From the human T2T-CHM13v2.0 reference genome, Homo sapiens, in NCBI RefSeq assembly GCF_009914755.1, contig NC_060939.1: a DNA stretch of 64,000 nt; one strand, written 5' to 3'. A program made the translations under genes and the position numbers. The notes below the pieces were generated by a model. It made no database searches. It was not told where the DNA came from and was given only the letters and a program-made list of their open reading frames with translations. This document shows, one piece after another, positions 11,853-19,659 of the stretch. Position 1 is the stretch's first letter, and the number at the start of each line of letters is the position of its first letter.

Positions 11853-12217
11853 TGCTTGAGCGCTTGGAACTGACTGTGCATGCATTGCTTGCTGTTCATC
11901 AGTGAGCTTCTGTGGAGCCAAGTTGGAAAACTTTTCCCTAGAAAGGTATAGTTCTGCCAGTAACAGGAATGCACCCAGGATTTGGAAACACTGTGATGCT
12001 CGAGGGCCTCAGCTCACAGCACAGTAGAAATCCCAGGCCAAGCCCCTACCTTGCCGTGGGCATCAGGCTCAGCCACAGTGCTATGGTGGACACTCATGCT
12101 CAGGGCAAGTCCCTTCTCCAGCCACATGCCGCCTGACGCTGCTCCCTGTCATTGTGACTCCAGCCACCTGCCACTCTGGCCTCAATTCATTATTTGTTTA
12201 TTTGTTTCTTCGGGAGT
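11852..12217. repeat. Segment Y copy A (~365-bp direct repeat; other copies 15573-15942 and 19298-19659)
   Basis: ATGCTTGAGCGCTTGGAA...GGGAGT present three times. Confidence 0.95.
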
Positions 12218-14198
12218 GGGACACTGGATCATTTTTTCAAAACATCTGCTTTCTCCCCAGACCTCTCCAGGAGGGGCAGCACAGACTTCACTCCCCCCAC
12301 CCCTCCCTGATACCGGAAACACTGACACAGGTCCAAATACGAAGGCCAAATAGATTGGGAAAGGCATGATATTGCTCAGGGAGAGGAGGCTTAACCCTAA
12401 TGACGGAGGGCCTGCAGAATGGCTTGAGGGAGGCTTTTCACGGCCCAGGTGCTGGTGTGCCTCCTCCCTGGAGAGGCCAGCTCTGGCCCACTGGAGACCA
12501 AGGGCGGTTGATGTAAAAGCAGCTCAGAGCCTCTGCTCTGAAACCATCGGATCTTGAACTGTTTTTGCTCAATTCCAGCTACCAGCAAGGATTATGTTGC
12601 ACATTCTGACATGTCAGTAATCCTGTAGGTTGATTTTGCACCACTCTCATGAGAAAAAGGGTCATGAATCTAGTTAGCCATGAAATTACCACATCATGAA
12701 ACCTTCATCCCGTTTAATTTACAGGTATCATTATTCAGAGTCCACAGTTCACAAAGAATATGGAGAAAACGAAGAGGGTTGGGGAAGAGTAACATAGAAT
12801 TAAATAGCTGTGGAAAAAAAGCCAAATAGATTGGAAAAGGCATGATATTGCTCAAGGAGAGGAGGCCGAACCTTGCGAGCACCATGAGTTGTCACAAGGA
12901 CGCCAACTCGCTCTTTTCTCCACTTCCCCACCCAGCCTAATAGAGGCAAGAGATAAAATCAGAACAGAGACAGAACTTCCTGCTGTTGAGGCTGATGACA
13001 AGGGATAACAGGCTGCCGGGAAATAATGGCATCCTTAGAGTCAAAGACCTGCCCATTTGATTGGTACCCTGCCTGGACACAGAGGTCTGGAATAAATTAG
13101 CTCTTTAAATCTTGTCCTCTAACACTGAAAAGTTCTTTTACTTCCTAAAATCAAGAATGTTCTTCAGATCATAAAGTCTGGTCCAAAGGCAACTGATAGT
13201 GAAGCAAGTCCTTCTAGAACGCAGTCTTGAAAGCCAAGTAAATTACTTTCATGAAACATATGGCAGATGGGTGCCCAATAGCTACAGAGATATCAATTTA
13301 CCACTAAGAAGCCAGCATTCACTGTGTGTGGAAAGAATTGTTGCAAAAACAGAGCAAATAATATTCTGAGTCCACCAACCCCCCATCTTCCAAACCTCCT
13401 GGACTGCAGCTCTGTGCAATATTCCTCCTACAGCCTCCTGGAGCAGCTGATCTTCCTACTTCACCCTCCGTCAATTCTCCTTGCTTTGGGTGTGGCTTTC
13501 TTTCTCTGAGTCTTGCTGGGGCCACAGAAGGCTCACGAGGCATGCAGGCCTCTACCATCTGTCTCTACCTTTGAGGACACACTCATTGCTACCCCCACCC
13601 TGTCCATGCTTTCTGCCCCCTCTCCTTAGGGCAACTTCCAACTCACCATTCCCTCTCCCAGCCTTTCATCCCAGGCTGTGGTCCAAACATCCTCCACACC
13701 ATTTCCCTTCAGGGGCTGCACCAACACATCACACTCATAATGTCCCTGAGAAAAGTTACCTTTCTTCTCAACCTACTGATAGAAAAAGAACTCTGCAGCT
13801 TTCATTATCTTCTCAAGCAGAAGCAAAACTATAAATTGATGACAAAGATCACCTCATGAAAGAGAAAAAACTCCTTAGTGTTGAAGTGTTTTAAAATATT
13901 CTAAATAACTCATGAGTCAAAAGATACTGAAAGGTGAAATACACCATGGTCTGTTCTGATGCAATGCATGCTTCTTTGATGCACATTCTCTCTTAAGTGC
14001 TTGGTAACAAACTCATTTGTCCAGGGCCTGCCCTGTAAGATGCTGCCTCCTCTTACGGGTATCTACTCTGACATTAGGGTAGCTGCTGGATTTTGTTACT
14101 TAGTGGGTTATTAGGTAGCACATATATTATTATAATACATTTAAAAATATTTTTAGTTTAAAAATTTCAAAATAATTTGTTTCCTTTGTAATAGTTTT

Positions 14199-14650
14199 TT
14201 TGGTTTTGTTTTTTGTTGCTGTTGTTGTTTTGAGACGGAGTCTGGCTCTATCGCCCAGGCTGGAGTGCAGTGGCACGAGCTCGGCTCACCGCAAGCTCCG
14301 CCTCCCGGGTTCACGCCATTCTCCTGCCTCAGCCTCCCAAGTAGCTGGGACTACAGGTGCCTGCCACCATGCCTGGCTAATTTTTTTTCCTATTTTTTAG
14401 TAGAGACAGGGTTTCACTGTGTTAGCCAGGATGGTCTCGATCTCCTGACCTCGTGATCTGCCCGCCTCAGCCTCCCAAAGTGTTGGAATTACAGGCGTGA
14501 GCCACTGTGCCCGGCCTTTTTTTGTATTTTTTAGTGGAGAAGGGGTTTCACCATGTTAGCCAGGATGGTCTCGATCTCCTGACCTTGTGATCCACCCGCC
14601 TCGGCCTCCCAAAGTGCAGGGATTACAGGCGTGAGCCACTGTGCCCGGCC
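14199..14650 (-). mobile_element. AluY-like element with extra left monomer (trimeric)
   Basis: Full antisense Alu 14199-14516 plus second left arm 14517-14650; one TSD TGTAATAGTTTT at 14187-14198 and 14651-14662. Confidence 0.92.
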
Positions 14651-14745
14651 TGTAATAGTTTTATTTCATGCTTTTAAAAACCTTATTCTGAGAAGGGATC
14701 CACAGGCTTCACTAGATTGTCATGACAAAAGTTATGACCCCCCCC
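14651..14745. mobile_element. hAT-Charlie-type DNA transposon fragment (host of the Alu)
   Basis: TTATTCTGAGAAGGGATCCACAGGCTTCACTAGA motif; family not certain. Confidence 0.45.
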
Positions 14746-14759
14746 ACCCCCGACCCCGA

Positions 14760-17923: not shown

Positions 17924-18375
17924 TTTGGTTTTGTTTTTTGTTGCTGTTGTTGTTTTGAGACGGAGTCTGGCTCTATCGCCCAGGCTGGAGTGCAGTGGCA
18001 CGAGCTCGGCTCACCGCAAGCTCCGCCTCCCGGGTTCACGCCATTCTCCTGCCTCAGCCTCCCAAGTAGCTGGGACTACAGGTGCCTGCCACCATGCCTG
18101 GCTAATTTTTTTTCCTATTTTTTAGTAGAGACAGGGTTTCACTGTGTTAGCCAGGATGGTCTCGATCTCCTGACCTCGTGATCTGCCCGCCTCAGCCTCC
18201 CAAAGTGTTGGAATTACAGGCGTGAGCCACTGTGCCCGGCCTTTTTTTGTATTTTTTAGTGGAGAAGGGGTTTCACCATGTTAGCCAGGATGGTCTCGAT
18301 CTCCTGACCTTGTGATCCACCCGCCTCGGCCTCCCAAAGTGCAGGGATTACAGGCGTGAGCCACTGTGCCCGGCC
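17924..18375 (-). mobile_element. Duplicate of the trimeric AluY-like element
   Basis: Matches 14199-14650 at +3725. Confidence 0.92.
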
Positions 18376-18484
18376 TGTAATAGTTTTATTTCATGCTTTT
18401 AAAAACCTTATTCTGAGAAGGGATCCACAGGCTTCACTAGATTGTCATGACAAAAGTTATGACCCCCCCCACCCCCGACCCCGA

Positions 18485-19345
18485 TTAAAGTTCCTTTAGA
18501 GCAGATTTTTTGGTGATAAACTCCCGTTTTTGGTTTATCTGTAAATAGCTTACTTCGTTCGCCTTGATGCTTGAAAAATAGTTACGCTGGAAACACCCTA
18601 GGTTGACAGTTGCATCTCTCAACAGTTTGAAACTATTATTCCACTGTTTTCTGACTGCCATTGTTGCAGCCAAGTCAGCTGTCCTCATTCTCTAAAGACT
18701 TTTGAGATCATCTCCTTGCCTTTAGTATTCTGAACTTTTTGCCTGGTATGTTAGGTGTGGATTTCTTTTTAATCTTCTTTGAGAGATACTGTGCTACTGA
18801 ATCTGTGAATTTATATTTTTCATTCGTTCTGGAAATTTTGTAGCTAATATCTCTTCAGATACTGTATCTTCGCTATTCTCTTTGCCAGGGACTCCAGTAG
18901 CTGTATGTTTGTCCTTCACATTCCATCCTCCAAATGTCTTAGTTTTTCTTCCACATATTCCCCACACATGTCATTCATGACTTCATTCTGGTTACTTTCT
19001 TTAGCTGTGTCTTCCAGATCATCAATTGTCTCTGCACTGTGTCTAATCAGCTGTTGAACTATATAACTGCACTTGTTTAGAAAAGTTCAGTGATTATATC
19101 TCAATATCTAGAAATTCTTTTATTTCCAAATGTAACTATTTATTTCAAATAGTTCCTTGTTGTGTGCTCATCTATATGACTGTGTTGATAATTTCTTTAA
19201 ATGTTTCATACACTAATGTTCTAGATTCCAAGACATGTTGTCCCAGGAGGGTATCAAAGTTTGCCCTTTGTTGTCTCATTGTGATTTGCTTTCTTTGATG
19301 CTTGAGCGCTTGGAAGTGTTTGACTGTGCATGCATTGCTTGCTGT
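18485..19345 (-). mobile_element. Duplicate old L1M ORF1-region fragment
   Basis: Matches 14760-15620 at +3725. Confidence 0.8.
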
Positions 19346-19659
19346 TCATCAGTGAACTTCTGTGGAGCCAAGTTGGAAAACTTTTCCCTAGAGAAGTATA
19401 GTTCTGCCAGTAACAGGAATGCACCCAGGATTTGGAAACACTGTGATGCTCAAGGGCCTCAGCTCACAGCACAGTAGAAATCCCAGGCCAAGCCCCTACC
19501 TTGCAGTGGGCACCAGGCTCAGCCACAGTGCTATGGTGGACACTCATGCTCAGGGCAAGTCCCTTCTCCAGCCACATACCGCCTGACGCTGCTCCCTGTC
19601 ATTGTGACTCCAGCCACCTGCCACTCTGGCCTCAGTTCATTATTTATTTGTTTGGGAGT
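19298..19659. repeat. Segment Y copy B (probable original)
   Basis: Contiguous with upstream L1M sequence; about 8 substitutions plus a few indels vs copy A. Confidence 0.9.

What the first reader, a model, noticed from the sequence alone, without database searches (positions are those of the whole stretch)
11946..19451. Recent 3,725-bp tandem duplication with a crossover mappable to 56 bp
The two units look identical. The middle Y copy is a hybrid. Its left part carries B-type markers (GTGTTTGACTG, AGTGAACTTC, GAGAAG; last at 15670). Its right part carries A-type markers (CGAGGG at 15727, TTGCCGTGGGCATC, CATGCC). This is the expected product of unequal crossover between Y(B) and Y(A) within 15671-15726. 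It predicts a polymorphic, possibly recurrent CNV with 0, 1, 2 or more units, including a reciprocal deletion with an A/B hybrid Y.
Basis: partly seen in the sequence, partly recalled or inferred. Interest (0 to 1): 0.85.

Follow-up and report, generated by a model that had tools for sequence, protein, structure and literature searches.

The report
Young 3.7-kb intronic tandem duplication
Two perfectly identical 3,725-base copies of intron sequence sit head to tail in the ENTREP2 gene, joined by a hybrid of two older 353-base repeats, which is the ordinary signature of a recent homology-guided duplication with no sign of any function.

Summary
Window 11946-15726 equals 15671-19451 with 0 mismatches in 3,781 positions at an offset of 3,725.

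Three copies of a 353/357-base repeat Y bound the two units: 11852-12204, 15573-15929 and 19298-19654. The outer copies differ at 12 sites, 11 substitutions and one 4-base indel. The middle copy has the right-hand (B) state at 5 of 5 left sites and the left-hand (A) state at 7 of 7 right sites. It shows one switch inside 15671-15726 and no scar.

Y is not a transposon. It occurs only at this locus in CHM13 and is not repeat-masked.

Zero differences between the units put the event under about 0.8-0.9 Myr (logic, figures). The Y pair itself is roughly 16-32 Myr old.

The mechanism is a homology-guided unequal exchange. The longest perfect tract between the parental Ys is only 64 bases, so it resembles alpha-globin or Alu-Alu short-tract events more than classical long-tract NAHR.

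The duplication lies deep in an ENTREP2 intron with no annotated element. Polymorphism and recurrence could not be tested here. This is a clean but ordinary structural variant of low interest.

The parts
11852..12204 (+). Y(A): left parental copy of the 353-base low-copy repeat
   Evidence: 95.8% to Y(B) over 357 columns. Found only at this locus in the genome, 3 of 3 scored candidates. Not in a masked repeat.
12205..15572 (+). X1: 3,368 bases of intron sequence between the repeats, first copy
   Evidence: Identical to X2. 12205-14200 has only two full-length genomic matches. 14650-15572 has two full-length matches plus 38 short pieces of 39-166 bases.
14118..14656 (.). Alu-like masked block inside X1, with a 134-base internal tandem repeat at 14383-14651; its copy is at 17843-18381
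   Evidence: RefSeq masked_repeat rows; TRF rows; 84% to another Alu-like copy at 20999-21300.
15573..15929 (+). Y(mid): hybrid junction copy, B-type on the left through 15670 and A-type on the right from 15727
   Evidence: B state at 5 of 5 left sites and A state at 7 of 7 right sites, with no private change; alignment A1.
15671..15726 (+). 56-base interval in which the exchange took place; identical in all three Y copies
   Evidence: Bounded by the last B-type site at 15670 and the first A-type site at 15727.
15930..19297 (+). X2: second copy of the 3,368-base segment
   Evidence: 0 mismatches to X1.
19298..19654 (+). Y(B): right parental copy of the repeat (357 bases, carries the extra GTGT)
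11946..19451 (+). Full extent of the two perfectly identical stretches (11946-15726 and 15671-19451, overlapping by 56 bases)

Best explanation
This is a real and evolutionarily young tandem duplication of 3,725 bases in an ENTREP2 intron. Before the event the haplotype read: left flank, Y(A), X, Y(B), right flank. Y(A) and Y(B) were direct copies of a locus-specific 353/357-base segment, about 96% alike and about 3.7 kb apart. One homology-guided exchange paired Y(B) of one DNA molecule with Y(A) of another, and the switch fell in a 56-base stretch of identity. The result is Y(A)-X-Y(B/A hybrid)-X-Y(B). Shown: the anatomy, the single switch, the lack of a scar, the identity of the units, and the fact that Y is not a transposon. 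Inferred: that the exchange was a reciprocal unequal crossover. I put about 0.55 on sister-chromatid or homologue exchange together, and about 0.3 on a replicative template switch, treated as a rival. Also inferred: an age under about 1 Myr and neutrality. I expect no effect beyond lengthening an intron of about 46 kb.
For: There are 0 mismatches in 3,781 paired positions at offset 3,725. Y(mid) carries the B state at 5 of 5 left sites and the A state at 7 of 7 right sites, with no private change and no inserted or deleted bases. Homology between Y(A) and Y(B) stops sharply at the Y edges, and flank alignments score at shuffle level: 10 vs mean 10.5 and 10 vs mean 10.1, with shuffle maxima of 15. 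So the Ys are discrete older paralogues, 11 substitutions in 353 bases, and not part of the new duplication. Y has only the 3 local copies in CHM13 and is not repeat-masked. With 0 differences in 3,725 bases and a recalled rate of 0.43-0.5e-9 per base per year, the 95% upper bound on age is 0.80-0.94 Myr. Exchanges through matching tracts under 50 bases are documented for the alpha-globin repeats about 5 kb apart (passage in PMC2583991). Tandem duplications and homology-flanked variants are common in long-read surveys: 15,295 tandem duplications, and 10.8% of other deletions with flanks of at least 200 bases (passages in PMC12350158). CHM13 is essentially homozygous, and only 0.3% of its assembly is flagged with potential issues (passages in PMC9186530).
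Against: No second haplotype, read set or ape orthologue could be examined, so neither the single-unit ancestor nor the reality of the assembly at this spot was seen directly. The longest perfect tract between Y(A) and Y(B) is 64 bases and the tract used is 56. That is below the >100 bases quoted for NAHR and far below the 300-500 bases quoted for meiotic events. No PRDM9-type 13-mer lies in 11852-19654 (0 of the 9 window matches). Identity of the two units is only weak evidence about sister versus homologue exchange: two random human haplotypes would be identical over 3.7 kb with probability about 0.21 under a simple coalescent. Conversion between the units after the event would make the age an underestimate.
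Confidence: 0.85

Rival explanations
1. The product is the same, but it was made by a replicative template switch of the break-induced replication kind. A broken or stalled nascent strand ending in Y(B) re-annealed to Y(A) behind it and copied X a second time. No reciprocal crossover or reciprocal deletion product was involved.
For: Identity tracts are short, at most 64 bases, with 56 used. Surveys of repeat-mediated rearrangements report that most junction homologies are too short for RAD51-type NAHR and propose annealing or replication-based routes (passages in PMC9675761; PMC10904011). The neighbourhood holds older small duplications, Z/Z' around Y(A) and W/W', whose junctions share a few bases. 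That pattern is typical of template switching.
Against: The junction is clean and in register within 353 bases of 96% homology. It lacks the templated insertions or complexity that often mark such events. Short-tract true exchanges are documented for closely spaced repeats. Sequence alone cannot separate the two routes.
Confidence: 0.3
2. Assembly artefact: CHM13 really has one unit and the assembler wrongly expanded it at the Y repeat.
For: The units are perfectly identical, as a false expansion would be. No reads were available to check.
Against: A false tandem copy needs reads that run X-end, Y, X-start. A single-unit genome has none, and the only shared sequence linking Y(B)-left to Y(A)-right is a 56-base exact tract, far below read-overlap lengths (inference). 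The whole 7.5-kb structure is shorter than the long reads used. CHM13 is homozygous, was validated with several read types, and has 0.3% of bases flagged.
Confidence: 0.03
3. An old duplication whose two units have been kept identical by repeated gene conversion.
For: Conversion between close tandem copies is known. The low Y(A)/Y(B) divergence relative to Z/Z' (3.1% vs 10%, Fisher p = 0.005) hints that conversion may have acted at this locus before.
Against: It would need conversion covering all 3,781 bases without one surviving difference, while stopping exactly so as to leave a clean one-switch hybrid and untouched A/B differences in the outer Ys. Simple recency explains the same facts with one event.
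Confidence: 0.03
4. A one-step de novo duplication of about 2.1 copies with no pre-existing repeats, so that all three Y copies date from the same event.
For: Period 3,725 with about 2.1 copies looks like a plain tandem repeat.
Against: X1 and X2 differ at 0 of 3,368 sites, while Y(A) and Y(B) differ at 12 sites in 353 bases. The differences are partitioned left and right in the middle copy. That is impossible if all copies are the same age.
Confidence: 0.01

Closest known systems
Alpha-globin 3.7-kb duplication/deletion (unequal exchange between the homology boxes of the duplicated alpha-globin units)
   Same: The repeats are direct, closely spaced and a few kb apart. The outcome is a gain or loss of about 3.7 kb with a chimeric junction copy. 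Exchanges through matching tracts under 50 bases are reported there, and the modest homology demand is ascribed to the proximity of the repeats (passage in PMC2583991). Sperm frequencies of 2.6e-5 and 6.2e-5 for duplication are quoted in PMC3857721.
   Different: Here the repeats are only 353 bases at 96% identity. They are non-genic, the unit carries no gene, and no population or sperm data exist for the site. That the alpha-globin event is called the 3.7 duplication is my recollection, not from a call.
Transposable-element-mediated rearrangements (Alu-Alu duplications and deletions)
   Same: The homology arms are of similar length (about 300 bases), the arms are diverged, the junction identity tracts are short, the size range is kilobases and the junction element is chimeric (passages in PMC9675761; PMC12350158).
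   Different: The arms here are not transposable elements. Y is unmasked and has only the three local copies. The arms are more alike (96%) than typical Alu pairs, which are about 80-82%.
Classical NAHR between low-copy repeats (genomic-disorder type)
   Same: The paralogues are in direct orientation, the junction is chimeric and in register, and reciprocal duplication and deletion are predicted.
   Different: Classical substrates are repeats of 10 kb or more with perfect tracts of hundreds of bases. Here the arms are 353 bases with at most 64 perfect bases. RefSeq lists 18 NAHR regions on chr15, and none lies in this window.
LTR-internal-LTR-internal-LTR tandem proviruses
   Same: The three-repeat, two-unit layout is the same and is produced by exchange between flanking direct repeats.
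   Different: Y is not an LTR. It has no other copies in the genome, is not masked, and X carries no retroviral signal. The resemblance is recalled, and it was considered and rejected.

Membership tests
Homology-mediated (NAHR-type) tandem duplication | Pre-existing paralogous repeats in direct orientation at both ends of the duplicated segment | tested here: met
   Y(A) 11852-12204 and Y(B) 19298-19654 are 95.8% alike on the same strand, and their 12 differences show they are older than the duplication.
Homology-mediated (NAHR-type) tandem duplication | The junction copy is an in-register chimera with a single switch and no inserted or deleted bases | tested here: met
   5 of 5 left sites are B-type and 7 of 7 right sites are A-type, with no private change and 0 mismatches across the 3,781-base overlap.
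Homology-mediated (NAHR-type) tandem duplication | A perfect-identity tract at the exchange point at least as long as the minimal efficient processing segment (>100 bases; 300-500 for meiotic events) | tested here: not met
   The longest perfect tract is 64 bases and the tract used is 56. Thresholds are from passages in PMC10904011, PMC9675761 and PMC2583991. The alpha-globin exception with tracts under 50 bases is noted.
Homology-mediated (NAHR-type) tandem duplication | A reciprocal deletion allele, or recurrence with different switch points, in other haplotypes | not testable with these tools
Transposable-element-mediated rearrangement | Both breakpoints lie in transposable elements of the same class | tested here: not met
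   Y has 3 genomic matches, all local. No masked_repeat row overlaps any Y copy.
Microhomology-mediated replicative duplication (FoSTeS/MMBIR type) | Junction microhomology of 1-20 bases, often with templated insertions or added complexity | tested here: inconclusive
   The junction lies in a 56-base identity tract within 353 bases of homology and is simple. This is neither typical of the class nor excluded by it.
Variable-number tandem repeat / macrosatellite | An array of several units that is multi-allelic in the population | not testable with these tools
   There are only two full units here. Allele spectrum is unknown.
Tandem provirus (LTR-mediated) | The flanking repeats are LTRs of a dispersed retroelement family | tested here: not met
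   as above.

The most novel reading that the evidence does not exclude
The site is a live, recurrent copy-number hotspot. Because the 353-base repeats lie only 3.4 kb apart, exchanges through identity tracts of about 50-60 bases happen repeatedly, as at alpha-globin. Human haplotypes would then carry 1, 2, 3 or more units with several different switch intervals, plus the reciprocal deletion. That would give a neutral, gene-free natural assay for the minimal homology that germline unequal exchange needs.
Probability: 0.15. Interest if true: 0.35.

Novelty: new member of a known kind. Interest (0 to 1): 0.15.

Why it matters
If the event is real and polymorphic, it is one more neutral intronic copy-number variant. 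Its value is didactic and methodological. The exchange point can be read to 56 bases, the arms are not transposons, and the parental tracts are shorter than the textbook threshold for NAHR. So it adds one clean data point to the question of how little perfect homology closely spaced repeats need. For users of the CHM13 reference it is also a place where short reads will map ambiguously, and where a 3,725-base deletion call against CHM13 can be placed anywhere along 3.8 kb. No gene, exon, annotated regulatory element or RNA family is affected.

Tried and rejected
**Y as a transposon or LTR.** This was rejected. The genome search found only the three local copies and no masked repeat overlaps them.

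**Extended diverged homology beyond Y.** This would mean an older, larger duplication with a converted core. It was rejected: local alignments of 400-base flanks score at shuffle level.

**Recombination-hotspot motif.** The recalled 13-mer has 9 matches in the window (1.91 expected), but 0 of them lie in 11852-19654. The nearest is at 11359-11371.

**Structured RNA.** There were 0 Rfam matches in 11000-20500.

**Coding content.** There are 5 ORFs of 90 aa or more in 11500-19800. All have TTG or GTG starts under the bacterial table and are 100-117 aa long, which is no evidence of a gene.

**Palindromes near the arms.** Only one weak 22-base G-rich/C-rich pair was found, at 11356-11377 and 11796-11817.

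**Base composition.** Nothing was unusual.

**Print record of this variant.**
- 'FAM189A1' with 'tandem duplication' returned 0 papers.
- 'FAM189A1' with 'structural variant' returned 5 papers. None concerned this site by title or abstract. One passage that I read only lists the gene among array-predicted regions.
- 'ENTREP2' with 'duplication' returned 2 papers, both irrelevant by title.
Some of them use CHM13 as reference and may well list the site as a deletion of about 3.7 kb.

**Sister versus homologue exchange from the identity of the units.** This was not decisive: P(0 differences) is about 0.21 under a coalescent with pi = 0.001, a recalled value.

**The primary alpha-globin duplication paper.** It could not be read (not held). 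I cite it only through PMC3857721 and PMC2583991.
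Full report
**1. The observation**

Comparing each base with the base 3,725 positions to its right gives no mismatch from 11946 to 15726, which is 3,781 positions. To the left the only nearby differences are at 11906, 11943 and 11945, then a shift of register. To the right, differences begin at 15727, 15780, 15788 and 15853.

Self-BLAST of 10000-23000 reports two relevant pairs:
- 11852-15929 against 15573-19654 at 99.63% over 4,082 columns, with 11 mismatches and one gap.
- 11852-12204 against 19298-19654 at 95.8% over 357 columns.

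The repeat finder shows three copies of the boundary repeat at spacings of 3,725 and 3,725.

So the layout is Y(A) 11852-12204, X1 12205-15572, Y(mid) 15573-15929, X2 15930-19297, Y(B) 19298-19654. In the whole window only four pairs reach 93% identity over 150 bases or more. Two are this structure and two belong to a LINE element.

**2. The hybrid**

Y(A) and Y(B) differ at 12 sites: one 4-base indel and 11 substitutions.
- Y(mid) differs from Y(A) only at the five leftmost sites: the indel, 11870, 11906, 11943 and 11945.
- Y(mid) differs from Y(B) only at the seven rightmost sites: 15727, 15780, 15788, 15853, 15910, 15921 and 15925.
- Y(mid) has no private change (alignment).

The 56 bases at 15671-15726 are identical in all three copies. 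This is one switch, in register and without a scar.

**3. What the arms are**

Y is not a dispersed repeat.
- A search of the whole CHM13 assembly with Y(A) returns three matches, all at this locus (3 candidates, 3 scored).
- No RefSeq masked-repeat row overlaps a Y copy. The only masked block inside the unit is 14118-14656, which is Alu-like and is copied to 17843-18381.
- X is largely unique as well. 12205-14200 has two full-length matches, one 132-base match to the Z segment next door, and one 74-base match on another chromosome.
- 14650-15572 has two full-length matches and 38 short pieces of 39-166 bases at 70-92% identity (40 of 50 candidates scored).
- Homology between Y(A) and Y(B) ends sharply. 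Local alignments of the 400-base flanks score 10 against shuffle means of 10.5 and 10.1, with maxima of 15.

Y(A) and Y(B) are therefore a discrete, older, locus-specific pair. Their 11 substitutions in 353 bases give a Jukes-Cantor distance of 0.032. That is about 16-32 Myr at recalled rates of 1.0 to 0.5e-9 per site per year per lineage. The figure is rough, and it would be too young if the pair has exchanged sequence since.

**4. Age of the duplication**

With no difference in 3,725 duplicated bases and a recalled human rate of 0.43-0.5e-9 per base per year acting on both copies, the 95% upper bound is 0.80-0.94 Myr. The median of the likelihood is about 0.19-0.22 Myr.

So the event post-dates the human-chimpanzee split by a wide margin. 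It could be anything from an old human polymorphism to a private change. Conversion between the units would make it look younger than it is.

**5. Mechanism**

Several routes can be excluded.
- A duplication cannot arise within a single chromatid. Intramolecular recombination or annealing between direct repeats only deletes. This follows from established knowledge.
- A non-homologous join is excluded by the in-register chimera.
- A one-step 2.1-copy duplication without pre-existing arms is excluded, because X1 and X2 are identical while the outer Ys differ at 12 sites partitioned left and right.

That leaves two routes: unequal exchange between sister chromatids or homologues, and a homology-guided replicative template switch.

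The perfect tracts between the parental arms are 18, 35, 36, 56, 52, 64 and 56 bases plus a few shorter ones, and the tract used was 56. Passages I read set the requirement for NAHR at more than 100 perfect bases (PMC10904011; PMC9675761). They set it at 300-500 bases for meiotic events at CMT1A. They also note alpha-globin exchanges through tracts under 50 bases, and ascribe this to the closeness of those repeats, about 5 kb apart (PMC2583991). The arms here were about 3.4 kb apart.

I therefore favour a short-tract unequal exchange of the alpha-globin kind (about 0.55). A replicative switch is the main rival (about 0.3).

Two further tests did not help. Identity of the two units does not separate sister from homologue exchange, because two random haplotypes would be identical over this length with probability about 0.21 under a simple coalescent with pi = 0.001. 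No PRDM9-type 13-mer lies in the structure: 0 of the 9 window matches fall in it.

**6. Assembly artefact**

I could not look at reads. Several points argue against an artefact.
- The whole structure, at 7.5 kb, is shorter than the long reads used.
- CHM13 is essentially homozygous.
- The assembly was checked with several data types and 0.3% of its bases are flagged (passages in PMC9186530).
- A false extra unit would need reads joining the end of X to the start of X through Y. A one-unit genome does not contain such reads (inference).

I give this 0.03.

**7. Function**

The interval lies in the ENTREP2 intron of about 46 kb between the exons at 4164-4220 and 50084-50391, with the gene on the minus strand.
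- There is no RefSeq enhancer, silencer or other functional element in 9000-23000. The only such element in the window is a silencer fragment at 33935-34126.
- No Rfam family matches in 11000-20500.
- No convincing ORF is present: five ORFs of 100-117 aa with TTG or GTG starts.
- Composition is unremarkable.

I expect no phenotypic effect.

**8. Comparison with what is known, and novelty**

Tandem duplications and homology-flanked insertions and deletions are among the commonest structural variants. One long-read survey counts 15,295 tandem duplications, and finds flanks of at least 200 bases for 10.8% of other deletions and 6.7% of other insertions (PMC12350158, passages). Breakpoint ambiguity along tandem-duplication copies is also a described problem (PMC10904011).

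The present case is a tidy member of that class. It differs from transposon-mediated cases in that its arms are unique sequence. It fails the strict perfect-tract criterion for classical NAHR.

I rate it a new member of a known kind, with interest 0.15.

The boldest reading not excluded is a recurrent multi-allelic hotspot usable as a natural assay of minimal homology. I give it probability 0.15 and interest 0.35 if true.

**9. Side observations**

- Y(A) sits exactly between two 132-base direct repeats, Z at 11724-11855 and Z' at 12215-12346, which are 88-90% alike. Both junctions share a few bases with the neighbouring segment. The sequence right of Y(B) resembles the start of Z and Z' over 14-19 bases. 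This looks like an ancient duplication of Z with a templated insertion of Y. However, Z/Z' are more diverged than Y(A)/Y(B) (10% vs 3.1%, Fisher p = 0.005). So either there were two events, or the Ys later exchanged sequence.
- A 55-base repeat W occurs at 12342-12396 and 12818-12872.
- The Alu-like block has an internal 134-base repeat.
- A LINE-type 3' end with an inverted 5' piece lies just left of the structure.

The last three are listed under Noticed in passing.

Noticed in passing
window 11724-11855 and 12215-12346 (copy of the second at 15940-16071): Two 132-base direct repeats (Z, Z'), 88-90% alike, directly flank Y(A). The Z/Y(A) junction shares about 4 bases. The Y(A)/Z' junction shares a 14-19-base imperfect stretch that is also present right of Y(B). 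This suggests an ancient duplication of Z with a templated copy of Y inserted between. But Z/Z' are 10% diverged against 3.1% for the Y pair (Fisher p = 0.005), so either there were two events or the Ys later converted.
   Followed up: partly
window 12342-12396 and 12818-12872 (copies at 16067-16121 and 16543-16597): A 55-base direct repeat (W), 91-94% alike and 476 bases apart, starting right where Z' ends. Its origin is unexplained.
   Followed up: no
window 14118-14656 (copy at 17843-18381): The Alu-like masked block is longer than one Alu. It contains a 134-base unit repeated 2.0 times at 89% identity (14383-14651), so one Alu arm has been duplicated or a partial second Alu abuts it.
   Followed up: no
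window 9189-11568 and 39906-43875: A LINE-type element 3' end with a poly-A run at about 11545-11558 lies about 290 bases left of Y(A). Its part at 9710-11524 is direct (94.2%) relative to the longer element at 39906-43875, and its part at 9189-9711 is inverted (95.8%). One ORF of the longer element (40060-40893) matches the endonuclease-reverse transcriptase family. The layout is that of a 5'-inverted insertion. Calling it twin priming is from recall.
   Followed up: partly
window-wide; 3605, 5445, 6847, 11359, 32452, 35716, 47042, 49693, 61735: The 13-mer CCNCCNTNNCCNC occurs 9 times against 1.91 expected from shuffles (0 of 100 shuffles reach 9). Four matches read CC[A/G]CCTTGGCCTC, which I recall as an Alu-borne form, so the excess is probably due to repeats. 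None lies inside the duplication.
   Followed up: no
window 11356-11377 and 11796-11817: A G-rich run and a C-rich run form a 22-base inverted pair, 82% complementary and 418 bases apart, straddling the LINE poly-A end and Z. It is probably low-complexity chance.
   Followed up: no
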